Assembly (NCBI GenBank): GCA_021818465.1
Contig: JAKAEA010000001.1
Location: 454,045 to 518,044 of the forward strand
Reading direction: 5' to 3'
DNA: 64,000 bases
Origin: a bacterium
GTDB lineage: Bacteria > Patescibacteriota > Minisyncoccia > Phycocordibacterales > JAKAEA01
The notes under the pieces were generated by a model. The model was not told where the DNA came from, did not search any database, and worked only from the letters and a program-made list of their open reading frames with translations. This document shows, in pieces, positions 2,309 through 64,000 of the stretch. The position numbers were made by a program, and so were the translations under genes. Within the stretch, counting starts at the first letter, position 1, and each line of letters starts with the position of its first letter.

Positions 2309-2530
2309 GTGTCGTTAAAAATATTAGCAATAAAAAATATTATGCAACAAAAAATTATTGAGAATAGAATCGCTGCTATAAACCGTGTCATAGACCACAA
2401 AATCCTACGCGGTCTTGATTACAGTGATGAAGCTCGTCGTCACAAAATGCTCCGCACTCAAATCAGAAAAGTTCGCCGCCAACGACCGCACATGCTAGGA
2501 ACATTTATACGTTTTGCTTCTTTTTTGTAA
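2309..2530 (+). CDS. Small hypothetical protein co-transcribed with lexA (GTG 2309, or ATG 2342 giving 62 aa)
   Basis: Basic 62-73-aa ORF between the LexA box and lexA. Its start sits about 7 nt downstream of the -10, so the transcript would be leaderless. Confidence 0.4.
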   Translation: MSLKILAIKNIMQQKIIENRIAAINRVIDHKILRGLDYSDEARRHKMLRTQIRKVRRQRPHMLGTFIRFASFL

Positions 2531-2540
2531 TTATCACGCC

Positions 2541-3128
2541 ATGAATGCATATACAGAAAAGCTCATTACGTTTTATAGAAGTCACAAACGAATGCCGACG
2601 TACGCTGAACTAGCAACACTCTGGAGTTTTAAATCAAAAAACGCGGTTTTTCGTGTAGTAGGAAAGATGGTTGCGGCTGGTATTGTTGCAAAAGATCATC
2701 TGGGTCGTCTCGTACCTACAAGCACCTTTCAGGAGACTCCTGTACTAGGTTTAGTAAAAGCTGGTTTACCCTCAGCTATTGATGGCGTAGAGACATACGG
2801 CATTGACGAAAGCGAGATGATTAGTTTTGATGAATTTTTAATAAAAGATAGAGCCAAAACATATATTTTAGAAGTTGATGGTGATTCAATGATAGACGCA
2901 CACATTGCCAAAGGCGATTTAGTGATTGTTGAACGTGCTGAAAAAGCCCGTGATGGCGACATTGTTATTGCTGAAGTTGATGGTGAATGGACAATGAAAT
3001 ATTTTCGTGAACAAAAGCATGATACAGGCCCCTGGCTCGAAGCCGCTAACAAAAACTACGCCCCGATTTATCCGGAGCATAGTCTTCGCATTGCCGCAAT
3101 TGTGCGTGGTGTCGTGCGAAAATATTAA
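2541..3128 (+). CDS. lexA: LexA repressor (S24 peptidase)
   Basis: N-terminal winged HTH and C-terminal S24 domain with the catalytic Ser (GDSM) and Lys. ATG at 2541. Confidence 0.85.
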   Translation: MNAYTEKLITFYRSHKRMPTYAELATLWSFKSKNAVFRVVGKMVAAGIVAKDHLGRLVPTSTFQETPVLGLVKAGLPSAIDGVETYGIDESEMISFDEFLIKDRAKTYILEVDGDSMIDAHIAKGDLVIVERAEKARDGDIVIAEVDGEWTMKYFREQKHDTGPWLEAANKNYAPIYPEHSLRIAAIVRGVVRKY

Positions 3129-3568
3129 CGCGTAGCAGAAATTGAAGTTTGAAGTTCAGGAGTTTGTGCTGCTACTGTGATACGACCATTGGCATCTTGT
3201 GATATTTCGTAACCAGTTTTATATATGCCACCCGCAGGATCGTAGGGAGTACCACCCGAAGGATCAATTGGTAACTCCGACAAATACTCTGGAACCAAGC
3301 AGCTACGAATATCAGCCGCACCGTTATTGATGGGTGTTGGAGTAGTTGTTAGAGTGTACGCGCAATTAAAAGCACCATTATTATCAACCATATTTTGATC
3401 AACGGCATCCAAGATAGACACTACTGCCGCCTTACGTTCTGAATCACGAGCTTGCGCAAATTGTTTTGCAGGATTCACTGCTACCAGTACTACTGCAGCC
3501 AAAATGCCGATAATACCAATGACCACCAACAATTCTATTAATGTGAAGCCTTGTTGAGGAGACCTCAT
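3125..3568 (-). CDS. Type IV pilin (prepilin; leader MRSPQQG, then FTLIELLVVIGIIGILAA)
   Basis: Class III signal with G-1, F+1 and E+5. ATG at 3568 (reverse-complement CAT at 3566-3568). Confidence 0.75.
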   Translation of the reverse strand: MRSPQQGFTLIELLVVIGIIGILAAVVLVAVNPAKQFAQARDSERKAAVVSILDAVDQNMVDNNGAFNCAYTLTTTPTPINNGAADIRSCLVPEYLSELPIDPSGGTPYDPAGGIYKTGYEISQDANGRITVAAQTPELQTSISATR

Positions 3569-3727
3569 CCTCTGTACTATACTTTTTTGTATTTGCATAA
3601 AATAATGCATTATTAATAATCTAGAAGTAAACCAATATGGCATTAAAATTCTCGTCAATATTTTTTAAAAATTTGTTAAAATTCTGCACCGCTCACTATT
3701 GATAATCATCTGTCAACATTCTCCGAG

Positions 3728-4042
3728 CTATGGCACGCAACTGGTAGCAACAATTCTTAGAGCACTGTTGCCTACATCTAATGTATAAAAAGGTAAATCT
3801 ACTAAGGAATTGTGTTGTGGTGAATATAAAGGATCGGCTGTTTGAGTTAGTTGTTGCACGGCTTGACACGAAAACATTTCTGTATCTGAAAGAACATAGT
3901 TTTTTGCCTCTAAAAATTGATCACGCAACGCAGCCAACCGCTGGACACGAATAAAAAGTACAATACTAAAAATCGCACCAAGAAACATTACCCCCATAAG
4001 CGCCATGAATCCTTTTTGATAATTTTTAATTTGGTGTCGCAT
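3728..4042 (-). CDS. Pseudopilin-like minor pilin (leader MRHQIKNYQKG, then FMALMGVMFLG; lacks E+5)
   Basis: Prepilin-type N-terminus followed by a hydrophobic helix. Overlaps the next gene by 17 nt. Confidence 0.5.
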   Translation of the reverse strand: MRHQIKNYQKGFMALMGVMFLGAIFSIVLFIRVQRLAALRDQFLEAKNYVLSDTEMFSCQAVQQLTQTADPLYSPQHNSLVDLPFYTLDVGNSALRIVATSCVP

Positions 4043-4424
4043 GATAGTATTCAAAAAATATCGGCGTACGCGAATCGCCATAAGAAAATGAAAAACGTAG
4101 GTGATGTATTGTTGTTGTAGTAGCAATCGCACCGATACCACGTCCTGACGAGGTGCTGTCCACGCTGGTTTGCGGATTCGATATGGTATGCCATACGGCA
4201 GTATCAAGAATATTTTTTGCCGAAAGGTACGTGGGCGATGCGTATACCTCATCACTTATTTTTTCCGCCACAAACAGTGATTCTTCTTGTTCACGCGCAC
4301 GCTGCTCGAAAGCTATATTAGATCGAGATACTAGTAACCAAACACTGGTCACACTAACTAGTAAAATGGAGAATAGACCAATGTATACACTTAATTCCAC
4401 AAATGTAAATCCTCGACAATACAT
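4026..4424 (-). CDS. Pseudopilin (leader MYCRG, then FTFVELSVYIGLF)
   Basis: Prepilin peptidase motif with E+5. Confidence 0.55.
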   Translation of the reverse strand: MYCRGFTFVELSVYIGLFSILLVSVTSVWLLVSRSNIAFEQRAREQEESLFVAEKISDEVYASPTYLSAKNILDTAVWHTISNPQTSVDSTSSGRGIGAIATTTTIHHLRFSFSYGDSRTPIFFEYYHATPN

Positions 4425-4434
4425 AGTTAAAAAA

Positions 4435-5841
4435 TTACTGAGGTGACGTACACAAAAACAGAGCGGGTGAATTACCATTCGTCACGTTATATATAATGTT
4501 ATTTTCATAGTCTAACCCTACAGTAGGTATTGAAGTGACAAGCTGTGGTCTACTAAAAAAATTTTGCGTTGTAGTTGCTGCATCGGTAGTAAGAGAAAAT
4601 ATACCTGCGTTAGTAGCAACGAGTAGGTGATGAGCAATGGCCCGAATATCATTTACTTGAGCGGCAAGCGAACTCGACGCAATAATAGTGGGGGCACGAG
4701 GGTTAGCAACGTTAAGCGCCACTAATTCAGGGTGACTTGGCGTGCTACCTTTACGTCGACCAGCATAGAGTATAGAACCGAGTAAAAATACTCGATTAGT
4801 ATATTCCGCACCAGTAAACGTCACGCTGGCAACTTTTATCGGATGCACAGGATCGTGCACATCAACAACAATAATATTGCTCGTGTTTCCGGAAGCTGCT
4901 AGATATGCATAGCCCCGAGATACAGCTATGTCGTAAATATTGTGATTTAACCACACCGAACCAAGCCAGCGAGGATTAGTAGGTATCGTTACATCAAAAA
5001 TATGAAATTCGCTTCCTGCCGTCCGATGTGTACCGACATATACTCGACCAGCGTAATAACGAACACTCAAACCTGAAGGATACGAGCCGCTAACACCAGG
5101 TAAAGAACGAGTCGCCACAATACTCGGATGTGTTACATCGTGCACATCAATCACCTGTAATTGACTTGTTGAACCAGTTACTGCCAAATACGCATATCCA
5201 TCCGCCACATCTACACTAGTAACTGGCGGCACTGTTACTCGCCCAATAATTGGGTGCGTGGTATTTTTTGGATCAGCAATAAGAAAATTAAATCCGTCAG
5301 TTGACGATGCGCCAAGATAAGCTTTACCTTCAAAAAAATCAAAGTTGGTTATGAATGCATTTGGAGTGGATGTGCCAAGGTAGATAGGAACGGGAGAAGT
5401 AACGCTCAGCGGGAGAGCGACACTATGAGGATTCATGAAACCCCCGCAGTCATTGCCAAGGGCAATGCTTGCCAATTGATCGGTATACAATGCCGCAATA
5501 ATAAGTGGTCGTACAAAATTCGGATAGGTAGAGCTGGCTGTTACTAGTGCTTCTTTCATGCACGGTTCTACGCTTTCTACTATAGATTGTGTGGTAATTT
5601 CTCTTTCAATATCTGTACTATACTGCGGCATATCGTAGGCCATAGTTTTTTCCAAGGCTGCCCGAGCAACATAGAGCATGCGACCATACACCACAAGTCG
5701 TTCCAAACTTTTTTGTTGCAAATCAAGCGTCGGAATGACAATGCTTGTTATTAGACTACATACGACAATTGCGATAACGATCTCAACCAACACCGCGCCA
5801 CGATGGGTAGTGCAATTAGTATTGTAATTCACCATTTTCAT
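4435..5841 (-). CDS. Large prepilin-type protein with a C-terminal LVIVD-repeat (beta-propeller) domain
   Basis: N-terminus ...THRG, then AVLVEIVIAIVV (G-1, E+5). Downstream are repeated ~40-aa units of the form YAYLA..G....L.V.DV.D...P. Confidence 0.65.
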   Translation of the reverse strand: MKMVNYNTNCTTHRGAVLVEIVIAIVVCSLITSIVIPTLDLQQKSLERLVVYGRMLYVARAALEKTMAYDMPQYSTDIEREITTQSIVESVEPCMKEALVTASSTYPNFVRPLIIAALYTDQLASIALGNDCGGFMNPHSVALPLSVTSPVPIYLGTSTPNAFITNFDFFEGKAYLGASSTDGFNFLIADPKNTTHPIIGRVTVPPVTSVDVADGYAYLAVTGSTSQLQVIDVHDVTHPSIVATRSLPGVSGSYPSGLSVRYYAGRVYVGTHRTAGSEFHIFDVTIPTNPRWLGSVWLNHNIYDIAVSRGYAYLAASGNTSNIIVVDVHDPVHPIKVASVTFTGAEYTNRVFLLGSILYAGRRKGSTPSHPELVALNVANPRAPTIIASSSLAAQVNDIRAIAHHLLVATNAGIFSLTTDAATTTQNFFSRPQLVTSIPTVGLDYENNIIYNVTNGNSPALFLCTSPQ

Positions 5842-6109
5842 AGAGAGTGATCGTTTCCGTAAAAGAACCGATAGAAAAATGTAGAGTGCGTGTTGACGTG
5901 CTCATTGTAGGTGACCGATCTCGTATTAACGCATCGAGCGTTGATTCTCGCTGCGCAAATGCAAGCCATTGATTATATTGATGGAGCGATAATCCAATTC
6001 CCATAGCAACAATCATTGTAAACACAACCATCACCACAATGATTTCTATAAGCGTAAATCCTTTTGTGCGAACATTAATGAATAGCGCTGACTGTTTGCG
6101 AGAGGGCAT
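5816..6109 (-). CDS. Pseudopilin (GspH/FimT-like; leader ...RTKG, then FTLIEIIVVMVV)
   Basis: Prepilin motif with E+5. 97 aa. Confidence 0.6.
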   Translation of the reverse strand: MPSRKQSALFINVRTKGFTLIEIIVVMVVFTMIVAMGIGLSLHQYNQWLAFAQRESTLDALIRDRSPTMSTSTRTLHFSIGSFTETITLYENGELQY

Positions 6110-7166
6110 AAATGGGAAGAATCATTGCGAGAGCAATAAAACCTATAGCACACCCAAGGAGTACCATTAACACTGGTTCGAGCAAACTTGACCATTTTTT
6201 TACCAATTCCTCATATTCACCCTGGAAGTATTCGGATAGGAAAGCGAGCGTTTCAGCGAGCGATCCGCTTGCCTCTGCTGCAGAAACAAGCTGAACCATT
6301 GTCTCAGGAAAGAGATGCGCGTGTGTGGCCAAGGCCTGAGAAACCGTAGTGCCTGATTCAACAGTACTACCGATATGATCCAGAGCTTGTGCGTATACAA
6401 CATTATTAGGATGTGATCGACGTAAACCAACCACTAACGGTATACCACTTGAAACTAAAACGGCCATCGTACCAGTAAAAACACTCAATATTTGTCCCTT
6501 AATTAACGTGTTCACAAATGGCATAGTCAACAATAATCTATCTCGCACACGCGTCGTGAATGTACGAGTAAAAGTATATTTACTGATAAAAATTACACTA
6601 AGAAAAACACTAACGAGAAACACTATGCCCCAAAACCAATGCCTGGCTATTGTGTCAGATACAAATATCAATACTCTGGTTGGAAAGGGTAACGTGGTAT
6701 GCATACTTTCTAAAAGTGGCCTAATTTTAGGAAAAATTCCAAACGTCATACCACCAGTTAACACTACCGATAACAACGCAATAGAAATAGGGTAGGTGAG
6801 AGCCGCCATAGTTTTTTTACGAAGTACATCTTTTTTGACTAGTGTTTGACCACAACGCTCCAACGCTTGCCGTATAGTGCCAGATTCTTCACCAGCTTCG
6901 ATAACGGTTATAAGACCGGGAGGTAACACTATTCGTTTTTGTATAGACTGCCAAAGTGGACAACCTGAGGCCAAATCTTCTTTAACCAGATCCAGAAAAA
7001 TCTTTCTGGGATTCGTACGCGGTACACGAGCAGCACAAAGCGAGATACATTCGTCTATTGTCGCGCCAGACTTTAGAAAAAAACCGAGTTGCTTAAAGAC
7101 AATTATTTGATCCCGTAGTCGTAATCTTATTCTTTTTTTTACCAAATTTTTTTTAAACAAAAGCAT
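6075..7166 (-). CDS. pilC: Type IV pilus assembly platform protein PilC / GspF family
   Basis: Two T2SSF repeats, polytopic. Located between pilB and the pilin genes. Confidence 0.85.
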   Translation of the reverse strand: MLLFKKNLVKKRIRLRLRDQIIVFKQLGFFLKSGATIDECISLCAARVPRTNPRKIFLDLVKEDLASGCPLWQSIQKRIVLPPGLITVIEAGEESGTIRQALERCGQTLVKKDVLRKKTMAALTYPISIALLSVVLTGGMTFGIFPKIRPLLESMHTTLPFPTRVLIFVSDTIARHWFWGIVFLVSVFLSVIFISKYTFTRTFTTRVRDRLLLTMPFVNTLIKGQILSVFTGTMAVLVSSGIPLVVGLRRSHPNNVVYAQALDHIGSTVESGTTVSQALATHAHLFPETMVQLVSAAEASGSLAETLAFLSEYFQGEYEELVKKWSSLLEPVLMVLLGCAIGFIALAMILPIYALSQTVSAIH

Positions 7167-7181
7167 AGTATACGTAGCTTT

Positions 7182-8282
7182 TTATAAAGCACTCAATACT
7201 TCGGCCATATCAACGAGTCCATGTTCTGTTTTTGTCATGCCATCTATCATAAGATTTCGCACGCCTGCACGCTCAGTAATTGTTCTCAGACGAGACAATG
7301 ATGGTTCATTCGTAATAGCTTCACGCAACGCATCAGTTACTGTAATTAGTTCGTATATCGCAATGCGCCCTTGAAAACCGGTATATTTGCACGCCAAACA
7401 ACCGCTCAACACGCGACAGTGCTGACATTTTTTACGAACTAATCGCTGAGCAATAATAGTTTCCACGGTTGCCGCAATAAGATACGGGGCAATGCCCATA
7501 TCAAGAAGACGGATGATTACCGAGATCGCATCATTCGTGTGTACTGTAGAAAAAAGCAAGTGACCAGTTAAAGCGGCGTGAATAGCTATATGCGCTGTTT
7601 CGGCATCACGTATTTCACCAACCATAATAACATCAGGATCTTGACGTAAAACAGAACGTAAACCAGAAGCAAAAGTTAAACCATGATCGGCATCAACCTG
7701 AATTTGTCTCGCGCGTGGCAACATGTACTCAACCGGATCTTCAATCGTGACAATTAATCGGTCGGGTGCAATGAGTTTCAATAAACTATACAGCGTTGTT
7801 GTTTTACCGGAACCAGTCGGACCAGTAACCAAAACCATGCCACGCTTACGACTAACAACAGTCGCCAAATATGAAGCGTCAGCCGTGCTGATACCTAACG
7901 ATTCTAGTTGAGAAAAATCTGGTTTATCTTTTAAAATACGCAATACGACTGCTTCACCGTAATATGTTGGCATCACTGAGACACGAATGTCAGCATGATG
8001 ATGAGGCCTAGTTACACGACCATCTTGTGGTAAATGGTGTAAATCCGTCCGTAGCCTAGCCAATATCTTAATTCGACCAATAAGACCAGCATGGAGCGTT
8101 TTCGGTAGACGACGATGCACCGACAACAAACCGTCTATCCTAAAACGAACGAATACATCACTTTCAAATGGATCAATATGAACATCGGATACGCCAACAC
8201 GGTCAGCTTCTTGTAGGATATTTTCCACAAGCACCGGCAGGTCAACGTTTTCTCCGGTTCCTATTGTATCCATTACTACCAA
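7182..8282 (-). CDS. pilB: Type IV pilus assembly / type II secretion ATPase (PilB/GspE family, short form)
   Basis: Walker A GPTGSGKTTT, Asp/His boxes, and a C-terminal tetracysteine (CQHC...CLAC). Confidence 0.85.
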   Translation of the reverse strand: MVVMDTIGTGENVDLPVLVENILQEADRVGVSDVHIDPFESDVFVRFRIDGLLSVHRRLPKTLHAGLIGRIKILARLRTDLHHLPQDGRVTRPHHHADIRVSVMPTYYGEAVVLRILKDKPDFSQLESLGISTADASYLATVVSRKRGMVLVTGPTGSGKTTTLYSLLKLIAPDRLIVTIEDPVEYMLPRARQIQVDADHGLTFASGLRSVLRQDPDVIMVGEIRDAETAHIAIHAALTGHLLFSTVHTNDAISVIIRLLDMGIAPYLIAATVETIIAQRLVRKKCQHCRVLSGCLACKYTGFQGRIAIYELITVTDALREAITNEPSLSRLRTITERAGVRNLMIDGMTKTEHGLVDMAEVLSAL

Positions 8283-20238: not shown

Positions 20239-21573
20239 ATGAACTCAATAGAAGAAATTTTAGCCGAACTATACGCTATTGATTCTAGCTTCAAACGCCA
20301 TGAGGTAGATTTGCGATTACTTATTAAGCGCTTACGCCTTACTAAGCCAGATTTTTCTATTGATGACGCATTCGTGCGGCGCTTGCGTTCCGATATTCTC
20401 CATGGTGGCAAACCTAAACCAATTGGCTTTTTAGTTCGCTCTTATTTTATTCAAACAGGTAAAAATCTTTTTCGCTCAAGTGCTTTTGGCACCGCTGTCG
20501 CTCTCGTATTACTTGTACCTTTAGCTTATGCCGCCCAAATTTATCATAAAAATCAGTCCGGATCGTATCAAGTAGATAACGCTTTTGTATCTCTTGGTCA
20601 ACAGCAAGAAATTTCTTATAAACCACAAAACGCTTTTGGCCCTGTCGCGCTGACTACTGTTTCCGCAACAACCGCGGCGACAAACACACCACCTTTGCCA
20701 AGTTCTTCTATTTTTGCCACCATTGCAAGTTCGAGCGCCAGCACAACTGAAATGGCTTCAGTAACAGCCACAGGAACCCCTCCTGCATATATTTTTACTG
20801 GTATAGCACCCTCATTACAAACAACCACGGCAAATGTTATAGAGACTGACACTAGCAGCGATGCTCGTTCTGAACTCCTAGATAACATTCAAAACCTCGG
20901 TTTTGAATTAACAAACATAACGTCTATTGCTAATGCTAATAACAGTGTGGGGGGAATTGAGGTTCAAGAATCTCAACCATTTGGATATATTGTTTCTATG
21001 AATTTAAACAAAATGAGTATTGCAATATCTAAAAATTCAGCAGTGTGGCCAGACGAAACATACCTACCTCTCTCTTCCGACACAAGCGCCACCGACACGA
21101 TCACGGTAGCTTTAAACTTTTTACGATCTCACAATATTGACACATCGAACTACGGACCAGCCACTCTTCTTTCAGAAAATAGTGCTAGCTCTACAGCAAC
21201 TGTTCTCTTGCCACTTATTATTCATAAACAAAATGTGTACAATCCTGATGGAAGTTTGTATGGTATGCTCGTTTCCGTTGACCAAAAATTAGAAAAAGTA
21301 ACGGGAGTAACCGGTATCTCACTTCAAAAATATACGGCGTCACCATATCCAGTTGAAAATAATTTTACAAACATTTTGAACGAACTCAACGCCACTTCAA
21401 CACTCGCAACCAGTACCGCAACTGACACACCACAACTTGAAACACCACTCGCTGGTCTTATTCGCTATACCACCAACAATTACGAATTCTTTGTACCTGG
21501 TCTTATATTCCCCGTTGCTTCCTCTACAAATTCTATTACCATATCACTCTTGAAAGACTCTGCTGGAAAATAA
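20239..21573 (+). CDS. Putative anti-sigma factor / single-pass membrane protein with an S/T-rich extracytoplasmic domain
   Basis: Immediately downstream of the ECF sigma gene (4-nt gap). It has an ~80-aa cytoplasmic N-terminus, one TM segment, and a large exported domain. Confidence 0.45.
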   Translation: MNSIEEILAELYAIDSSFKRHEVDLRLLIKRLRLTKPDFSIDDAFVRRLRSDILHGGKPKPIGFLVRSYFIQTGKNLFRSSAFGTAVALVLLVPLAYAAQIYHKNQSGSYQVDNAFVSLGQQQEISYKPQNAFGPVALTTVSATTAATNTPPLPSSSIFATIASSSASTTEMASVTATGTPPAYIFTGIAPSLQTTTANVIETDTSSDARSELLDNIQNLGFELTNITSIANANNSVGGIEVQESQPFGYIVSMNLNKMSIAISKNSAVWPDETYLPLSSDTSATDTITVALNFLRSHNIDTSNYGPATLLSENSASSTATVLLPLIIHKQNVYNPDGSLYGMLVSVDQKLEKVTGVTGISLQKYTASPYPVENNFTNILNELNATSTLATSTATDTPQLETPLAGLIRYTTNNYEFFVPGLIFPVASSTNSITISLLKDSAGK

Positions 21574-26427: not shown

Positions 26428-28353
26428 TTAAGAAAGAACTTTTAAAATCTTTTTTATGGAGCCTGTTGCCACACCACACACCGTATCAGCACCACCGTAG
26501 TAAACATATAAAGTATCGTCGCGAATCACTGCCCCGCATGGAAATACAACATTTGCGACTTGGCCTTCTTTCTCATACTTCATATGTGGTTCTAAAACCC
26601 AATCAGTAGTGCGCGCCACCACTTTTGTAGGATTCGTTGCGTCAAGAAGTGCTAAGCCAAGACGGTATTCAGAAGAATCCTCGGCAATACCATGGTACAC
26701 GAACAAATACGCTGACGTACCATCTTCCCTTTTGACGAGCATCGGTGGGGTATTGAGACCAATTTTTTTAGCATCCCACATACCGTGACGCGGTTCTAAC
26801 ATGACCGCATAGTCAGTGACCGGTTTTGGTTGCTCTATAGTAATTGAACTAACACATATAGCGTTATTGATGCGATGGAAAAAAAGTGTGCCATGATGAG
26901 CAGTGTGCATAATACACGCATCTTTATCGTCCACACCCACCGGCGAAATAAGCACTGGTTTTTCCCACGACCACTTCCCTTTTGTATTTTCCAAAAAATC
27001 AGAAACGGGAGCAGATGTCAACGCCACCGCCGGCGCTTGTGTGCCGTTAAACGCGGTGTAGCACATATACACCCTATCACCAATTCGCGTCACCCGCGGA
27101 TCTTCACAACCAGAATTTCCATTAGGAATATTTTTTAATTCAAAAGGTTCACGCGGTTCATATAGTGGCATAGTATCACGCGTTATGATACGCACACCGT
27201 CACGTGTCGTCGCATGACCAATACGTGATGTATTATCAGCAGACATGGCGCGATACAATATATGTGTTGTGCCATCTATTTCAAAAGCTGCTGGATTAAA
27301 TACTGCTTTTTTTTCCCACGCATTGTTGGTAGGTGTCAGAATAGGATTTTTAGAAAAACGAGTCAGCACCGATTCCCCCATCATTGTTGCAAGTAAATCT
27401 GCAAGACGCACTTCAGCAGCAGCACATACCGTGTCAGCAGCACCATAATAAATACGAACCATATCGCCCACCAGAAGCGCGCTCGACGGAAATACCACAT
27501 CGGGCACTGTTCCATACCGCTCGTACACCTCCTCTGGTACCAAGAGTGGCCCACGTGTTCGACCAATAATTTTTCGTGGATTTTTGAGATCAAGAAGAAT
27601 AGCTTCTACGCCAAAAATTTTTTGATGTTGACTGTAATAGTGGCGAATGTGCGAATAAAAGATGAGCCAACCGGCTGGAGTTTTCAGAGGCGTTGAACCA
27701 ATCTCAATACGTTCATCCTCAGCACGTTTAAGATTAAACGACCACTCGTCAATGTGCGTCAACCATTCACGCCAATATGTTTCTGACCACATTTGTTCTG
27801 GTGAATCAAATTGTATAAGAGCGGTTTTTGAGGGCGGTGTATCGGTATGCACGGTAAGAACGGCTGTTAATTTTCCACCGATTTTTTCAGGAAAAAGCGT
27901 CATTGCTTTAGCGTTAAACGGTGTTACGAGATGTCGTTCTTGAATTGTTTTTAAATCCTTACTCAACGCGACAGCTACACGAATACCATCAGCAGAAAAA
28001 GGAAAATGCGACAAAGCTGTATAAAAAATATAATGCGTACCGTTGAGGTACGTTACCCGCGGATCTTCACAACCATACCGTTCCCACATTTCTTGCGGCG
28101 TTATAAACGGCGTTATATCAGAAAAATGTAAGCCATCAGGACTCGCGGCTCGGCCAATTGTTGAGAGAAAAAATTGGCCACGAGCACCTGAAGTTTCAGC
28201 AAGCGGTCGTGGCTCAGCAACCGCCCGAAACACCATATCAACACGCTTCCCTATCGCAACGAGCGAAGGATTAAACGTAGCATACGATCGCCACACATCA
28301 TCTGTAGTGGGACGTACAAGTGGATTTTTCTCATAACGACGAACAACAAACAT
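26428..28353 (-). CDS. Fused tandem GH130-family protein (two complete mannoside-phosphorylase-like domains)
   Basis: Both halves carry GH130 hallmarks (FNPS/FNPAA, GCEDPRVT, YYGAADT). Confidence 0.75.
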   Translation of the reverse strand: MFVVRRYEKNPLVRPTTDDVWRSYATFNPSLVAIGKRVDMVFRAVAEPRPLAETSGARGQFFLSTIGRAASPDGLHFSDITPFITPQEMWERYGCEDPRVTYLNGTHYIFYTALSHFPFSADGIRVAVALSKDLKTIQERHLVTPFNAKAMTLFPEKIGGKLTAVLTVHTDTPPSKTALIQFDSPEQMWSETYWREWLTHIDEWSFNLKRAEDERIEIGSTPLKTPAGWLIFYSHIRHYYSQHQKIFGVEAILLDLKNPRKIIGRTRGPLLVPEEVYERYGTVPDVVFPSSALLVGDMVRIYYGAADTVCAAAEVRLADLLATMMGESVLTRFSKNPILTPTNNAWEKKAVFNPAAFEIDGTTHILYRAMSADNTSRIGHATTRDGVRIITRDTMPLYEPREPFELKNIPNGNSGCEDPRVTRIGDRVYMCYTAFNGTQAPAVALTSAPVSDFLENTKGKWSWEKPVLISPVGVDDKDACIMHTAHHGTLFFHRINNAICVSSITIEQPKPVTDYAVMLEPRHGMWDAKKIGLNTPPMLVKREDGTSAYLFVYHGIAEDSSEYRLGLALLDATNPTKVVARTTDWVLEPHMKYEKEGQVANVVFPCGAVIRDDTLYVYYGGADTVCGVATGSIKKILKVLS

Positions 28354-28358
28354 ATATA

Positions 28359-30281
28359 TTATTTTAAAATAATTGCATGGTCCTGCGTACCGCTCGATTT
28401 TCGACGATGTTTAATTTTTTCTAAAAGTTCTGCGAGTGGTGCTGTGGCTACACACACATGTCGATCTGCGCCACCATAATAAATGGAAATGTTTCCATTG
28501 TGCACAATAGAACCGCATGCATATATAACACCAGGCTTACCACTGTTTTCGTACCACATATCTGGAGCTAAAATTGGATATGCTGAACGAGCAATAACTT
28601 TTTCAGGGTGGTGCGCATCAAGTAATAAAGCACCGAGTTTGTATTTACCTGGTTCAGATTTTTCGTGACCATGATATAACACCAACCAACCAGCTGGAGT
28701 TTTTATGGGAGGCGGACCAGCACCGCGCACTCGAGCATCCCATCGACCTGATATTTCCGGTATAGTAATAGGATCAACGCTATGTATCTGCCGATGCCCC
28801 TTAGCGAGCTCCTCGAGTGTGTGCACATATTCAATGCGTACCGTTGGTGTGACGCTATGCAAAATAGCAAATTTTCCGTCAATTTTTTCAGGAAAAAGTA
28901 CCCAGTTTTTATGGCGCTGACCAGGTGGCGAAATGAGAATCGGCTCAGTCCAACGCCAACGTTTATTGAGAAAATCTTCACGATTAATTGAACTCGCACC
29001 CATGCGAATAGAATTCCAATCATCAAAAGCGGTAAAAGTTAGATATATTTTATCTTCAATTTTTACTAAACGAGGATCTTCTACGCCGCCCCAACTGCCC
29101 CCCGAAGGATAGATTGTGGGACCATATTGTCGCTCTGCAATATCAGCAATTGATCGCAAACGTGGTAAAGCAAAAACCGGCTCCGTAGATCGATCGTCAA
29201 AATTAAATCCGTCGGCACTAGACGCATACCCGAGCACTGAGAGGCCGTGCGCACCGACAGCTCGATACAATACATGCACACGACCGTTGTCATAGATAGC
29301 CGCCGGATTAAACACTGCCTCATTTTCCCATTCATAATGAGGTCGGGCTTGCAATATCGGATTCGCGTGGTGTCTATTTAAAAAACGTCGTTCGGGTGGG
29401 GTGGCAAGTAATGGTACTGATTGCGGCAGCGGAATGGTAGCACGAATAATAGAGTTGTCCGCAGCAATCCAGTAGAGTGTCATCACACGTTCTCCATTTG
29501 GTTTTTCTGCATCCGTAAATGCAACGCCGAGGGGCAGTACCGCTCCTTTCTCGCTATACACAAGACTTTCCCATACCGGCACCGGAGACCGCCAGAGTAT
29601 TTTTTTAGGATTATCCGCAGCAAAAAGTATTGCACCTGCAGCTACACGCGTGAGTATACCCTCTGTACGTGAAGCATCATATATCACCAAAATACCTTCT
29701 GGTACCCGTCGTGTGCCAATAGGTACAAGAGGGCCACTATCAAATGCATTGTGTCGTGATGTGTATAATAAATCTGGCTCTTGTTTCCAATGTCGTAGGT
29801 CGCTAGAAAACAGTGCTGTGGTAAACAATCCGGAACGATATAGCCAATGATGACGTGGTGTTGAGGTAGCAAACACAAAATCAGGTATTGCTGTAGTGGC
29901 TAACACTTCTTTTTCTAAAGGGATTTCGCTTCGTACTAACCACGAATACACATCGTGCGCGGTAGCCACAACCAGCGAACGTGTATCATGTACTTCTTTG
30001 ACATACACAAGAACCCACGAATCACCGTCAACAAAAAAACGAAATTTTGAACAGAAGCGTGGATTTTCTTTAACGCCATTAGAATAGCGAATAGAAACTT
30101 CTTTACCAAGAAGACCAAAATAGCCCGTCACCTCTTCCCAAAGAATAGTGAGGGTCACTCGCACACCGCTTTCGCGGCGAACAAAGAGACCTTGTGTAGC
30201 GTTATACGTTAAGACACCGAGTGGTTGGCAATCCTTAAAACGAGGGAGCGTATGAGAACGAGTAATTTTAGTGCGAACCAT
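28359..30281 (-). CDS. Fused double GH130-family protein (divergent N-terminal half, canonical C-terminal half)
   Basis: C-terminal half has FNPAA, GVEDPRLV and YYGGAD. The N-terminal ~300 aa is propeller-like and more diverged. Paralog of the adjacent gene. Confidence 0.7.
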   Translation of the reverse strand: MVRTKITRSHTLPRFKDCQPLGVLTYNATQGLFVRRESGVRVTLTILWEEVTGYFGLLGKEVSIRYSNGVKENPRFCSKFRFFVDGDSWVLVYVKEVHDTRSLVVATAHDVYSWLVRSEIPLEKEVLATTAIPDFVFATSTPRHHWLYRSGLFTTALFSSDLRHWKQEPDLLYTSRHNAFDSGPLVPIGTRRVPEGILVIYDASRTEGILTRVAAGAILFAADNPKKILWRSPVPVWESLVYSEKGAVLPLGVAFTDAEKPNGERVMTLYWIAADNSIIRATIPLPQSVPLLATPPERRFLNRHHANPILQARPHYEWENEAVFNPAAIYDNGRVHVLYRAVGAHGLSVLGYASSADGFNFDDRSTEPVFALPRLRSIADIAERQYGPTIYPSGGSWGGVEDPRLVKIEDKIYLTFTAFDDWNSIRMGASSINREDFLNKRWRWTEPILISPPGQRHKNWVLFPEKIDGKFAILHSVTPTVRIEYVHTLEELAKGHRQIHSVDPITIPEISGRWDARVRGAGPPPIKTPAGWLVLYHGHEKSEPGKYKLGALLLDAHHPEKVIARSAYPILAPDMWYENSGKPGVIYACGSIVHNGNISIYYGGADRHVCVATAPLAELLEKIKHRRKSSGTQDHAIILK

Positions 30282-57275: not shown

Positions 57276-58122
57276 TCGTGGTATCTTTTTTTATAAGCAC
57301 AGACGAAAGATCAAAAATATCTACCGGTGCGGTAAAAAGAATGCGTTCATATGGATCAGCTGGGGCAGCCGTTGCTACTTCTATCCGACCAAGAATATCA
57401 TTGACCGGCATACCAGCAGCTGTAACAATATCGCCAATAGCCACCGGTGAATTACGCGGCAAGCGCACTTCAAGCGTGCCACCGCCCAAACCTTCGGCCG
57501 CCGCTTCCAAAGACGATGAGCCTAATAAAACATTAATCGTTTGACCGGGTGTGGAATACGCAGTAACCGTGGCGGCCGTAGCCGACACAGAACTGACGTA
57601 TCCAATAAGCGTATATGGATCGGCAAACACGAGATCGCCAGTGGCAACACCTTGATCACTACCAGCCGCGACGAGCATCGTGTCATAAGGTGAAAAATCT
57701 GGTTTTGAAAAAACGGCCGCGGTCACAAATGCACTTGGTGACGATGAACCAAATTCCCCCAACAGCGTTTGCAGTTGATACGCTTTGGTAGCGAAATAAT
57801 CTCGCTCAGCTACAACAGCAGCATAGAGCGCAGCGTCTTTTTTAAGAGTAGTATTTTGCGCCTGCAAACTTTCTTTACTTTGAAAAAAAGTACTCAATCC
57901 CTCTACACTCGTACTAAGAGCATTGCGGATTGCCGCAAAAGGTTGGGCAATGGCCTGCACAGGTGTCGCCATAATATGCGGCGCAAAACGAGCGGCTATA
58001 AGCACCAGCAACAAAAAACCCACAATACCGAAGATTCCGTAGCGCATTACAAAACTAGATCGCCGGCCAAAATAACCCGAACTCGGTCGACGAAAATTAG
58101 AGCTTGGCAGACGGAAGCGCAT
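57250..58122 (-). CDS. mreC: Rod shape-determining protein MreC
   Basis: N-terminal TM segment, coiled coil, and C-terminal beta domain. The start is uncertain (58122 versus 58047). Confidence 0.7.
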   Translation of the reverse strand: MRFRLPSSNFRRPSSGYFGRRSSFVMRYGIFGIVGFLLLVLIAARFAPHIMATPVQAIAQPFAAIRNALSTSVEGLSTFFQSKESLQAQNTTLKKDAALYAAVVAERDYFATKAYQLQTLLGEFGSSSPSAFVTAAVFSKPDFSPYDTMLVAAGSDQGVATGDLVFADPYTLIGYVSSVSATAATVTAYSTPGQTINVLLGSSSLEAAAEGLGGGTLEVRLPRNSPVAIGDIVTAAGMPVNDILGRIEVATAAPADPYERILFTAPVDIFDLSSVLIKKDTTNVHTTVKK

Positions 58123-59185
58123 CGTCGTTTTTAATAAGCACATCAGCAAAACGTGGCAAATCTTCCAAAACAACACCGGTGCCACGAGCAACGGCGGTCA
58201 ATGGATCATCGGCAACAATTACAGGAATTTTAAGGTGCTCATGAAGCAAATCAGCTAGACCTCCGAACAGTGCGCCGCCACCGGCGAGGTGCACACCGCG
58301 ATGCATAACATCAGCAATAATTTCCGGCGGTGTAGTTTCTAAAGCTTCCTTAGCCGCTTCAACGAGTGTTGCGACTGATTGACGCGTGGCTTCGCGAATA
58401 TCCGCATCAGTTACTACCACCTCGCGCGGCAAACCAGTTACCAAATCACGACCACGAATCACGGCTTCCGGCGACGGAGCCGACTCAGCGGTGTGAGCAA
58501 CTGATTCTAGTTCGGTCACCGAGCCAATAGCTACTTTAATATATTCCGCAGTCTTTTCGCCGACAAGAATTTTAAATTCATTACGAATGTAATTGATAAT
58601 GTCGTTATTGAGACGATCACCAGCAATTTTAAGATTTTTTGAAACCACAATACCACCAAGCGATATAATAGCGATATCAGTAGTACCGCCACCAATGTCT
58701 ATAATCATATTACCGACTGGTTCTAAAACCGGTAAACGAATACCGATAGCCGCGGCCATTGGTTCTTCTATTATATGCACGTCGCGAGCGCCGGCGGATA
58801 TTGTAGCATCACGAACCGCGCGCGTTTCTACGTTCGTGATACCTGCTGGCACACCAACAACCACACGCGGTCCAAAAAATTTCTTTGTATCATGTTGCGC
58901 TCGATTCAAAAGGTAACGCATCATTTCCTCAGTGACTTCAAAATCAGAAATAACACCGTCAACAATTGGCTTGACGGCAGTAATGTGTTGCGGTGTCCGA
59001 CCAAGCATATTTTTTGCTTGTGTGCCCACAGCCACTACCGTACCTGTTTTTTGATTAACAGCTACCACCGATGGTTCATTCACAACAATACCTTTTCCAC
59101 GCACATATACTAGAGTGTTAGCTGTTCCCAGATCGATACCAATATCGTTGGAAAGCATAGAGCGAATGTTACGACGAAGAGGCAT
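58097..59185 (-). CDS. mreB: Rod shape-determining protein MreB
   Basis: MPLRRNIRSMLSNDIGIDLGTANTLVYV... Actin-like ATPase. Confidence 0.9.
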   Translation of the reverse strand: MPLRRNIRSMLSNDIGIDLGTANTLVYVRGKGIVVNEPSVVAVNQKTGTVVAVGTQAKNMLGRTPQHITAVKPIVDGVISDFEVTEEMMRYLLNRAQHDTKKFFGPRVVVGVPAGITNVETRAVRDATISAGARDVHIIEEPMAAAIGIRLPVLEPVGNMIIDIGGGTTDIAIISLGGIVVSKNLKIAGDRLNNDIINYIRNEFKILVGEKTAEYIKVAIGSVTELESVAHTAESAPSPEAVIRGRDLVTGLPREVVVTDADIREATRQSVATLVEAAKEALETTPPEIIADVMHRGVHLAGGGALFGGLADLLHEHLKIPVIVADDPLTAVARGTGVVLEDLPRFADVLIKNDDALPSAKL

Positions 59186-63237: not shown

Positions 63238-64000
63238 CTATCGTTTGGCAATAATACTCTTTTTATAGACGTCTAGATGTTCAAGCGCTAAACCAGTACC
63301 CTTTGCTACACAAAAAAGCGCTTCATCGGCAAGCACTGCCTTGACGCCAGTGCGTCGAAAAACCAGCTCCGGTAAATGTCGTAATTGCGATGAACCGCCG
63401 GTCATAATAATGCCATTGTCTATAATATCTGATGCCAATTCTGGTGGTGTTTCTTGCAAAACTGTTTTAATAGCCCCTATCATTTCTACTAATTCTTTAT
63501 CTATTGCTTTTACTATCTCATTTGTTTTGATCTCAACAGAACGTGGCAAACCTGTAACAAAATCGCGACCTTTAACCGTCATTGTTAATTCTTCTTCTAT
63601 AGGAATAGCTGAACCGATATGCACTTTCACGTCTTCAGCAGTTTTATCACCAATAGCGAGATTAAAATTTTTCTTAAGATAATCAACGATAGCCGTATCT
63701 ATTTTTGTACCAGCCACTTTAACTGACGTACACGCAACAATACCGCCCAGAGAGATAACGGCCACATCGGTGGTACCACCACCAATATCTACAATCATTT
63801 GGCCCATTGGCTCCTGAATGGGAATACCGGCACCAATAGCTGCAAGAATAGGTTCCTTAACAACGTACGCATTTTTTGCTCCAGCTTTAATTGCCGCTTC
63901 CACGACCGCTCGTCGCTCGGTAGAGGTAATACCCGCAGGTACACTCACTAAAACATCTGGCCGCACAAATCCCCAACGTCCTAAGGTTTTACCAATAAAG
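63238..64000 (-). CDS. Second MreB/Mbl-like actin homolog (5' partial, runs off the window)
   Basis: Paralog of mreB at 58097..59185 (DIGGGTTDVAVISLGGIV...). The frame is open to nt 64000. Confidence 0.8.
   Translation of the reverse strand, partial: FIGKTLGRWGFVRPDVLVSVPAGITSTERRAVVEAAIKAGAKNAYVVKEPILAAIGAGIPIQEPMGQMIVDIGGGTTDVAVISLGGIVACTSVKVAGTKIDTAIVDYLKKNFNLAIGDKTAEDVKVHIGSAIPIEEELTMTVKGRDFVTGLPRSVEIKTNEIVKAIDKELVEMIGAIKTVLQETPPELASDIIDNGIIMTGGSSQLRHLPELVFRRTGVKAVLADEALFCVAKGTGLALEHLDVYKKSIIAKR

What the first reader, a model, noticed from the sequence alone, without database searches (positions are those of the whole stretch)
4435..5841. Prepilin fused to an LVIVD-repeat beta-propeller inside the type IV pilus operon
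The 468-aa protein has a class III prepilin leader (G-1, E+5), so it should be processed and incorporated like a minor pilin. Its body is about six LVIVD-type repeats, which predict a beta-propeller. It is flanked by three small pseudopilins plus pilC, pilB and the major pilin. A propeller displayed on a pilus is a plausible tip adhesin, for example for host-cell attachment by an episymbiont.
Basis: partly seen in the sequence, partly recalled or inferred. Interest (0 to 1): 0.6.

Follow-up and report, generated by a model that had tools for sequence, protein, structure and literature searches.

The report
Pilus subunit carrying a beta-propeller
In this tiny candidate-phyla-radiation (CPR) bacterium, one small building block of the type IV pilus has a seven-bladed propeller domain fused to it, probably shown at the pilus tip to grip something; this design is already known in outline, so it is a well-supported but incremental find.

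Summary
ORF 4435-5841 (-) encodes a 468-aa protein with a prepilin-type N-terminus. G15 and E20 are invariant in 25 homologues, and about 90% of 74 related genes have Glu at +5. It passes the Pfam LVIVD threshold. A confident AlphaFold2 model (pLDDT 89.5) shows a 57-residue pilin helix, a four-stranded pilin head and a seven-bladed beta-propeller, not about six blades.

The gene sits in a tightly overlapping operon: pilB, pilC, H-like pilin, this gene, a third pilin, a pilin-like gene lacking Glu5 (K-like), major pilin. That order recurs in 66-67 of 68 loci with enough flank, from CPR/Patescibacteria genome assemblies. The pilin module most resembles GspI/PilV/ComGE.

My best reading is a core "I-type" minor pilin carrying a grafted propeller on the tip/priming complex. 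The most conserved parts are loops of blades 2-4. From propeller topology, not the model's coordinates, I place them on the top face, which suggests ligand binding. The ligand is unknown. The domain is acidic, which argues against DNA.

This is not a new kind. N_methyl+LVIVD architectures are listed among "modular pilins" (Raynaud 2021), and a propeller-bearing minor pilin (PilX2) mediates host binding in Saccharibacteria TM7x. I rate it a new member of a known kind, of moderate interest.

The parts
7182..8273 (-). pilB-like extension ATPase, 363 aa, core only and ComGA-like in length
   Evidence: Pfam T2SSE 369.7 bits. NCBIfam GspE, PilB and ComGA hits cover only the C-terminal core of the longer models. 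The gene call is in L001.
6075..7166 (-). pilC-like platform protein, 363 aa
   Evidence: Pfam T2SSF 138 bits with two stretches. GspF, HofC and PilC hits in NCBIfam.
5816..6109 (-). Minor pilin 1, H-like, 97 aa, KGFTLIE. Overlaps pilC by 35 nt and the target gene by 26 nt.
   Evidence: N_methyl 28.9 bits. Family members hit GspH in 34/43 and ComGD in 31/43. Glu5 is present in 63/67.
5797..5841 (-). Leader peptide of the target (residues 1-15, ending HRG). The predicted prepilin-peptidase cleavage site is after G15.
   Evidence: G15 is invariant. The leader is unstructured and low-confidence in the model.
5635..5796 (-). Alpha-1 helix of the pilin module (residues 16-69), with E20 (= +5) and P37 (= +22)
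   Evidence: Helix 13-69 in the AF2 model. E20 is invariant. A profile of the family N-termini matches pilin alpha-1 in the PDB, weakly, E 1.2e-3.
5437..5634 (-). Small pilin head (residues 70-135): four beta-strands, with the conserved Cys pair C94...C132 (PC...GxDCxG)
   Evidence: Strands 74-77, 82-90, 95-104 and 113-120. The Cys columns are conserved in about 70-90% of sequences. Pilin modules of the family hit ComGE in 23/42, PilV in 12/42, XpsI in 5 and GspI in 4.
5356..5436 (-). Linker (residues 136-162)
   Evidence: Lower pLDDT and low conservation, 0.31.
4438..5355 (-). Seven-bladed LVIVD beta-propeller (residues 163-468). The most conserved stretch is residues 246-297 (blades 2-3 loops and strands).
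4026..4478 (-). Minor pilin 3, in the J position, 150 aa, RGFTFVE
   Evidence: N_methyl 20.8 bits, just below the cut-off. Glu5 is present in 73/75 family members. Weak, mixed hits to ComGE, ComGF, GspH and GspJ.
3728..4081 (-). Minor pilin 4, K-like, 117 aa, KGFMALMG, with no Glu5
   Evidence: Glu5 is present in only 1/68 family members. There is no Pfam or NCBIfam hit apart from 2 weak GspK hits among 42. A low-confidence AF2 model shows a long N-terminal helix, 4-81. 142 homologues were found, all unannotated.
3125..3643 (-). Major pilin, QGFTLIELLVVIGIIGILAAV
   Evidence: N_methyl 38.3 bits; GspG and PilA hits. It is the last gene of the operon in related loci.

Best explanation
The gene encodes a modular minor pilin. 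It is the GspI/PilV/ComGE-type ('I') member of a four-protein core minor-pilin set (H, I, J and a Glu5-less K). Its C-terminus carries a fused seven-bladed LVIVD beta-propeller.

The set belongs to a compact seven-gene type IV filament operon: a short PilB-like ATPase, PilC, four minor pilins and a major pilin. This operon is conserved across many Patescibacteria/CPR lineages.

Proposed steps:
1. A prepilin peptidase encoded elsewhere cuts after G15 (inferred).
2. The hydrophobic alpha-1 helix with Glu5 docks the protein into the minor-pilin complex that primes filament assembly (inferred by analogy with GspHIJK/PilHIJK).
3. Filaments grow from tip to base, so the complex and the roughly 33-kDa propeller end up at the pilus tip.
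4. The strongly conserved loops of blades 2-4, inferred to lie on the top face, bind a ligand. The most likely ligand is a conserved surface component of a partner or host cell, so the protein acts as the pilus adhesin.

Shown here: the motif, the predicted fold, the synteny, the family conservation and the I-type resemblance. Inferred: cleavage, tip location and ligand.
For: Class III signal features:
- G15 and E20 are invariant in 25 homologues.
- 72 of 81 homologous ORFs match G-x4-E followed by a hydrophobic run; five of the nine that do not are cut off at a contig end, and for at least three of the other four a looser search finds a comparable motif (+1 or +5 variants, or a motif split off by a frameshift).
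- +5 is Glu in 67/74.

Operon and synteny:
- Genes from pilC to minor pilin 4 overlap by 26-56 nt.
- pilB and pilC lie directly upstream on the same strand in 66 of 68 loci with enough flank. One of the two exceptions, L009, does have them.
- The gene order is the same in loci as low as 25-30% identity.

Minor-pilin typing by per-member NCBIfam scans:
- Upstream pilin: GspH 34/43, ComGD 31/43.
- Pilin module of this family: ComGE 23/42, PilV 12/42 (best 1e-9), XpsI 5, GspI 4.
- Fourth pilin: lacks Glu5 in 67/68.

Established knowledge: HIJK corresponds to ComGD/E/F/G. These proteins form a tip-located complex capped by a Glu5-less subunit, and assembly starts from it (PMC10191384).

Precedents:
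- Modular pilins PilB and PilC of S. sanguinis (PMC8179133).
- TM7x PilX2, a minor pilin with a heptabladed propeller needed for efficient host binding (PMC11623550).

Conservation peaks in the D-A and B-C loops of blades 2-4, at 0.5-0.62 against 0.31-0.42 in the pilin head, linker and blades 1, 6 and 7.
Against: - The curated pilin HMMs (PF07963, TIGR02532) do not hit this protein.
- All I-type hits are below the curated cut-offs and are driven largely by alpha-1.
- Residue +1 is Ala here and varies in the family (F, S, Q, L and others). This is atypical for N-methylated pilins.
- No prepilin peptidase, PilT or PilMNO was found among the ORFs of at least 150 aa that I scanned in the 64-kb window. 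Not every ORF was scanned.
- Tip location, complex formation and the ligand were not tested. No multimer model could be run.
- Assigning the conserved loops to the 'top face' is deduced from strand order, not from coordinates.
- High conservation of those loops across lineages that presumably have different hosts is unusual for a host-specific adhesin. It could instead reflect an interface with the pilin head or with partner pilins.
Confidence: 0.62

Rival explanations
1. DNA receptor of a competence (Com-like) pilus. The filament is used to capture extracellular DNA, which CPR bacteria with reduced biosynthesis need, and the propeller is the DNA-binding tip module. This would be analogous to the grafted module of Thermus ComZ.
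For: - The machinery is Com-like in being minimal: a 363-aa ATPase matching the whole ComGA model (244 bits), one major plus four minor pilins, and no PilT or PilMNO in the operon.
- The pilin module most often matches ComGE, and the upstream pilin often matches ComGD.
- The conserved loop cluster fits a universal ligand.
Against: - The propeller domains are acidic throughout the family: median pI 4.57, median net charge -13, and none of 69 is net positive.
- All Com hits are below the curated cut-offs, and GspE, PilB and GspH models score as well or better.
- In TM7x, mutants of the pilus with the propeller-bearing minor pilin showed no competence defect (PMC11623550).
- No comEA or comEC gene was seen among the ORFs I scanned in the window.
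Confidence: 0.13
2. Assembly or stability factor rather than adhesin. The propeller is a bulky cap that primes or stabilises the minor-pilin complex, or blocks retraction, as proposed for the PilY1 C-terminal propeller. On this reading the conserved loops are an intramolecular or inter-pilin interface.
For: - The gene is strictly co-inherited with pilB/pilC and the other three minor pilins.
- Conservation of blades 2-4 is as high as that of alpha-1N. This is typical of an interface inside a machine.
- pTM of 0.85 suggests a fixed arrangement of the head and the propeller.
- PilY1 primes T4aP together with minor pilins (cited in PMC11623550 and PMC10191384).
Against: - In TM7x, the propeller-bearing PilX2 was not needed for filament extrusion but was needed for host binding.
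- Many T4 filaments assemble with plain I-type pilins, so the propeller is not needed for priming as such.
- In some lineages the K-like pilin is the enlarged one, at 874-1408 aa. This looks like effector grafting rather than a structural need.
Confidence: 0.15
3. Not a pilus subunit. It is a surface or membrane-anchored LVIVD protein with an ordinary signal-anchor helix that merely lies next to pilus genes, or an enzyme (propeller hydrolase or lyase) tethered to the membrane.
For: - The N_methyl HMMs fail on this protein.
- LVIVD propellers occur widely in non-pilin surface proteins, including giant 3000-6000-aa proteins.
- Virginiamycin B lyase and other enzymes appear among the propeller neighbours.
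Against: - G(-1) and E(+5) are invariant at a fixed spacing before the hydrophobic helix. An ordinary signal anchor has no reason to keep them.
- Distant family members have the canonical GF[TS]xxE.
- Reading frames overlap with the flanking pilin genes.
- Synteny is conserved in 66-67 of 68 loci.
- The model shows a 57-residue helix plus a pilin-like head.
Confidence: 0.05

Closest known systems
Modular type IV pilins (S. sanguinis PilB with a vWA module and PilC with a lectin module; the InterPro census of Raynaud et al. 2021, PMC8179133)
   Same: A small N-terminal pilin module carries a bulky functional module grafted at the C-terminus through a short linker, and the protein is expected to sit at the tip. 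The census already lists about 30 proteins with IPR012902 (N_methyl) followed by 1-13 copies of IPR013211. IPR013211 is the LVIVD repeat (PMC10210494). The list includes an 860-aa Candidatus Falkowbacteria protein, and the motif is described as of unknown function.
   Different: This protein escapes the N_methyl signature, so such a census would miss it. It has a single propeller. The I-type identity of its pilin module, the conserved seven-gene operon and the conserved loops of blades 2-4 were not described there. No member of this architecture has been studied experimentally.
PilX2 of Nanosynbacter lyticus TM7x (Saccharibacteria T4P-2; PMC11623550)
   Same: [quoted passage not shown] Its deletion halves host binding without abolishing filaments, and it was proposed as the tip adhesin.
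   Different: - The PilX2 propeller is described as RCC1-type, whereas this one is LVIVD-type. No RCC1 family was hit.
- PilX2 was reported to lack a predicted PilD signal peptide, whereas this family keeps G(-1)/E(+5).
- The TM7x pilins lie in a locus separate from pilB2/pilC2 and pilMNO. Here everything is in one compact operon without pilMNO.
- I could not compare the two sequences directly.
PilY1/PilC tip adhesin of type IVa pili
   Same: A seven-bladed-type propeller is associated with the HIJK (FimU-PilVWX) minor-pilin complex at the pilus tip, with roles in adhesion and priming (PMC8179133 discussion; PMC10191384).
   Different: PilY1 is not a pilin and joins the complex non-covalently. 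Here the propeller is covalently fused to the I-type pilin. No match to any PilY1/PilC propeller family appeared in the Pfam scan at E up to 1.
GspI / PilV / ComGE core minor pilins
   Same: - The pilin module is small.
- The gene lies between an H-like pilin and a J/K-like pair.
- Glu5 is present.
- Family members give weak hits to ComGE, PilV, XpsI and GspI.
   Different: All scores are below the curated cut-offs. Known I-type pilins are about 100-130 aa with no extra domain.

Membership tests
Type IV pilin / class III signal peptide (PF07963 N_methyl, TIGR02532) | Short basic leader ending in Gly(-1), followed by about 20 hydrophobic residues with Glu at +5 | tested here: met
   The sequence is ...THRG|AVLVEIVIAIVVCSLITSIVIP. 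G15 and E20 are invariant in 25 homologues. Glu5 is present in 67/74 related genes.
Type IV pilin / class III signal peptide (PF07963 N_methyl, TIGR02532) | Match to the curated HMM above its threshold | tested here: not met
   There is no PF07963 or TIGR02532 hit for this protein at E up to 1. Only 5 of 42 family N-termini hit TIGR02532 at E up to 0.01.
Type IV pilin / class III signal peptide (PF07963 N_methyl, TIGR02532) | Lollipop fold: an extended alpha-1 helix of about 50 residues with a beta-sheet head packed on its C-terminal half | tested here: met
   The AF2 model shows helix 13-69 and four strands at 74-120, with pLDDT 84-93 in this region.
Type IV pilin / class III signal peptide (PF07963 N_methyl, TIGR02532) | Cleavage and N-methylation by a prepilin peptidase, and incorporation into the filament | not testable with these tools
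   No peptidase gene was found among the ORFs scanned in the window. The rest of the genome was not available. Biochemistry is needed.
LVIVD repeat beta-propeller (PF08309 / IPR013211) | HMM match above the gathering score | tested here: met
   25.4 bits against a 20.2 cut-off, with 2 stretches. PF08309 is precomputed on most homologues.
LVIVD repeat beta-propeller (PF08309 / IPR013211) | Beta-propeller fold built from four-stranded blades | tested here: met
Core minor pilin, I type (GspI / PilV / ComGE) | Sequence membership in the equivalog models | tested here: inconclusive
   ComGE scores 24.4 bits against a cut-off of 49 for this protein. Among family modules, ComGE hits 23/42, PilV 12/42 (best 1e-9), XpsI 5 and GspI 4. 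All are sub-threshold.
Core minor pilin, I type (GspI / PilV / ComGE) | Encoded within a four-gene H-I-J-K set whose last member lacks Glu5 | tested here: met
   The order is H-like (GspH 34/43), this gene, a third Glu5 pilin, then a pilin-like gene with Glu5 in 1/68.
Core minor pilin, I type (GspI / PilV / ComGE) | Forms a complex with the J and K subunits at the filament tip | not testable with these tools
   No multimer prediction was available.
PilY1/PilC tip adhesin | C-terminal PilY1/PilC-type propeller domain, with no pilin N-terminus | tested here: not met
   The Pfam scan at E up to 1 returned only LVIVD and a weak Beta_propel hit. The protein has a pilin N-terminus.
Modular pilin (sensu Raynaud et al. 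2021) | N-terminal pilin module plus a C-terminal domain not specific to pilus biology, joined by a linker | tested here: met
   The pilin module is residues 16-135, the linker is 136-162 and the LVIVD propeller is 163-468. The same architecture class is in their Dataset S1.

The most novel reading that the evidence does not exclude
The propeller may not be a host-specific adhesin. It could be a conserved functional head shared by a large part of the CPR radiation: either a receptor for a universal envelope component, or a tip-mounted enzyme. The conserved polar residues in the loops of blades 2-4 (G252, G276, E278, H280, D283) would then form a binding or catalytic site. On this reading the family would be a covalently fused counterpart of the PilY1-on-minor-pilins arrangement, and a general key to how Parcubacteria-type CPR cells engage partners.
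Probability: 0.12. Interest if true: 0.65.

Novelty: new member of a known kind. Interest (0 to 1): 0.38.

Why it matters
Almost nothing is known about how the huge Parcubacteria-type part of the CPR attaches to or senses partner cells. Pili are among the few surface machines these organisms keep.

This work gives a concrete, testable candidate:
- a conserved seven-gene operon;
- its I-type minor pilin carries an acidic seven-bladed propeller;
- a sharply conserved set of loops points to a possible binding site.

It also shows that signature-based censuses of modular pilins miss members whose N-terminus has drifted from the N_methyl model.

The advance is incremental. The design principle (modular pilins) and a CPR example with experimental support (TM7x PilX2) are already published.

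Tried and rejected
- The afdb50 fold library was unavailable, so no whole-architecture structural neighbours with names or organisms were obtained.
- phmmer of the protein against PDB sequences gave nothing meaningful.
- Profiles of the four minor-pilin families against PDB sequences matched only the shared alpha-1 of major pilins. They could not assign H, I, J or K types.
- A single-sequence homology search for the K-like gene found only itself. The profile search found 142 unannotated relatives. The resulting AF2 model was poor (pLDDT 72, pTM 0.39), so I did not run a fold search on it, and its GspK likeness rests on position and the lack of Glu5.
- The promoter and terminator scan of the operon gave counts at chance level.
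- The cluster look-up gave no organism names. The genome is known only as GCA_027341405.1, contig DAIEME010000001.1, so its lineage within the CPR is not fixed.
- I considered and down-weighted a DNA-receptor role because the propeller is acidic throughout the family.
- I considered PilY1 homology, but no PilY1 family hit was found.
- I could not map conservation onto the three-dimensional model because coordinates are not exposed. The 'top face' assignment is deduced from strand order.
Full report
**1. Observation**

The ORF list shows a 468-aa reading frame at exactly 4435..5841 on the minus strand. Its N-terminus is MKMVNYNTNCTTHRG|AVLVEIVIAIVVCSLITSIVIP. This has a basic leader ending in Gly, Glu five residues later, about twenty hydrophobic residues, and a Pro at +22.

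Pfam finds the LVIVD repeat above its gathering score (25.4 against 20.2 bits) plus a weak Beta_propel hit. It does not find N_methyl. NCBIfam gives only sub-threshold hits to ComGE over residues 14-81 and to the LVIVD-containing choice-of-anchor B domain.

The neighbours on the same strand are:
- a T2SSE ATPase (7182-8273);
- a T2SSF platform protein (6075-7166);
- a 97-aa N_methyl pilin (5816-6109);
- a 150-aa pilin (4026-4478);
- a 117-aa pilin-like gene without any family hit (3728-4081);
- a major pilin (3125-3643).

From pilC to the fourth pilin, every gene overlaps the next by 26-56 nt.

**2. Is the N-terminus really a prepilin signal?**

Forty-one homologues were found. In an alignment of 25 of them, at 22-62% identity to the query, the only invariant residues in the N-terminal third, apart from the start Met, are G15 and E20. 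The more distant members carry the canonical GF[ST]xxE.

A scan of one genome per species found 78 loci. All but three are labelled as CPR/Patescibacteria or unclassified 'bacterium' assemblies. They include Kaiser-, Lipton-, Giovannoni-, Jorgensen-, Taylor-, Zambryski-, Vogel-, Sung-, Adler-, Nomura-, Brenner- and Colwell-bacteria, Minisyncoccia, and many assemblies labelled Saccharibacteria.
- Of 81 homologous ORFs, 72 have G-x4-E followed by a hydrophobic run. Five of the nine that do not are cut off at a contig end, and for at least three of the other four a looser search finds a comparable motif (+1 or +5 variants, or a motif split off by a frameshift).
- With a looser parser, +5 is Glu in 67 of 74 and Asp in 2. 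Residue +1 varies: F 29, S 12, Q 11, L 6 and others.

**3. Fold**

An AlphaFold2 model built from the 25-sequence alignment is confident, with pLDDT 89.5 and pTM 0.85. It contains:
- a helix at 13-69;
- four strands at 74-120, forming a small pilin head bracketed by the conserved Cys pair C94/C132;
- a linker;
- 27 strands forming seven four-stranded blades at 163-465.

So the propeller is real, generic in fold, and has seven blades rather than six. Only four repeats match a strict LVIVD-type pattern.

**4. Context and place in the machine**

The same gene order recurs in relatives down to about 25-30% identity: ATPase, platform, small GFTLIE pilin, LVIVD pilin, GFTLIE pilin, a pilin-like gene reading GF/Y-x-AL without Glu5, then a GFTLIEILVVIGIIAILA major pilin.

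Of 68 loci with at least 3.3 kb upstream, 66 have pilB and pilC homologues directly upstream on the same strand. One of the two exceptions is a parsing artefact.

Glu5 frequencies for the four minor pilins, in gene order, are 63/67, 67/74, 73/75 and 1/68.

Scanning each family member against NCBIfam gives a differential picture, although all pilins share alpha-1:
- the first pilin matches GspH (34/43) and ComGD (31/43);
- the pilin module of the LVIVD family matches ComGE (23/42), PilV (12/42, best 1e-9), XpsI (5) and GspI (4);
- the third is ambiguous, with ComGE, ComGF, GspH and a few GspJ hits;
- the fourth matches almost nothing, only two weak GspK hits.

A published review equates PilH/I/J/K with PulH/I/J/K and ComGD/E/F/G. 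It states that these proteins form a tip-located complex capped by a subunit lacking Glu5, from which assembly starts (PMC10191384). The operon therefore reads E-F-H-I-J-K-G, and the finding is the I-type subunit with a propeller grafted on. All I-type scores are below the curated cut-offs, so I treat membership as inconclusive and rest the claim on position plus resemblance.

**5. What the propeller might do**

Conservation over 69 full-length family members is highest in blades 2-4, with a majority-residue fraction of 0.5-0.62. It is 0.31-0.42 in the pilin head, the linker and blades 1, 6 and 7.

The peak is residues 246-297, with the pattern L..V.GS.P.G....Y.....Y.GT..TAG.EFHI.DV..P..P...GS.E. 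By strand order these are mainly the D-A and B-C loops, which form the 'top' face in propellers and are the usual ligand site. This is a deduction, because I had no access to the model's coordinates.

The propeller domain is acidic in every member: median pI 4.57, median net charge -13. That argues against a general DNA-binding role.

The strong conservation across lineages that presumably have different partners fits a conserved ligand or an interface inside the tip complex better than a strain-specific receptor.

**6. Machinery**

The ATPase is only 363 aa. It aligns to the C-terminal core of the GspE and PilB models and to the whole ComGA model. I found no pilT, pilMNO or prepilin peptidase among the ORFs of at least 150 aa that I scanned between 16.8 and 64 kb, nor near the operon. 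Not every ORF was scanned.

The system is thus Com-like in its economy. It cannot be filed as a Com pilus, because all Com equivalog scores are below their cut-offs.

**7. Comparison with what is known**

The principle is published. 'Modular pilins' carry grafted modules and are thought to be tip-exposed, as shown for S. sanguinis PilB and PilC (PMC8179133).

The InterPro census in that paper lists about 30 proteins with N_methyl followed by 1-13 copies of IPR013211. It mentions an 860-residue Falkowbacteria protein with 12 copies of this 'motif of unknown function'. IPR013211 is the LVIVD repeat (PMC10210494).

In Saccharibacteria TM7x, the minor pilin PilX2 carries a heptabladed propeller described as RCC1-type. 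Its deletion reduced host binding from 10.6% to 4.6% of host cells, while the thin pili remained (PMC11623550). A full-text search for 'LVIVD' together with 'pilin' found no study of this family.

What appears to be new here:
- the I-type identity of the carrier pilin;
- the conserved compact operon;
- the conserved loop cluster;
- the fact that this subfamily escapes the N_methyl signature.

**8. Family size**

Against 1.84 billion representatives, 208 proteins score E ≤ 1e-30. Of the 140 newly returned proteins among the best 150 hits, 70 are shorter than 800 aa, and 51 of these carry the pilin motif. The other 70 are 800-6013 aa proteins with many LVIVD stretches, and 15 of these also begin with a pilin N-terminus. 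Pilin-LVIVD fusions therefore come in one-propeller and multi-propeller sizes.

**9. Verdict**

The adhesin role is a reasonable inference with a direct precedent, but it is untested. I rate this a new member of a known kind, of moderate interest.

Noticed in passing
L003:10042-14019, L053:3930-7874, L059:8299-12243, L070:6017-8641, L082:8366-12592: In some lineages the Glu5-less, K-like fourth pilin is 874-1408 aa instead of about 130 aa. This is a second, independent way of grafting bulk onto the same tip complex. No domain was assigned.
   Followed up: no
Proteins P0167-P0305 from the representative search: The propeller also matches giant 3000-6000-aa proteins with 10-21 LVIVD stretches. 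15 of 70 hits of at least 800 aa begin with a GxxxxE pilin N-terminus, for example P0206 (1295 aa), P0229 (957 aa) and P0276 (1998 aa). These are multi-propeller pilins.
   Followed up: partly
window 3728-4081 (-): The K-like pilin family (142 relatives, all 'hypothetical', no Pfam domain) has its own nearly invariant residues: G24, R53, C72, Y86 and a second Cys. It is an unannotated conserved family. The AF2 model was confident only for the long N-terminal helix.
   Followed up: partly
window 7182-8273 (-): The pilus ATPase is only 363 aa. It lacks the N-terminal domains of GspE and PilB, and it matches the full length of the ComGA model at a sub-threshold score.
   Followed up: partly
window 2514-3128 (+): A LexA-like S24 peptidase gene converges on the major pilin gene and overlaps its stop codon by 4 nt. 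This arrangement is not conserved in the more distant loci L002 and L003.
   Followed up: no
window 26428-30281 (-): Two tandem genes of about 640 aa each carry a GH130 (mannoside phosphorylase) domain in the C-terminal half and an unassigned N-terminal half of about 300 aa.
   Followed up: no
window 58097-59185 (-) and 63238-63966 (-): Two MreB paralogues lie within 6 kb, together with MreC and two PBP2-type transpeptidases, in a genome of only about 0.54 Mb.
   Followed up: no
window 20239-21573 (+): A 444-aa ORF with no Pfam match lies directly upstream of a HlyD-like membrane-fusion protein gene, with an MFS transporter gene further downstream.
   Followed up: no
L003:1051-4650 and L004:294-3893: In one distant lineage, two large CLIPPER-domain (PF01345) proteins lie immediately upstream of pilB in the same orientation.
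   Followed up: no
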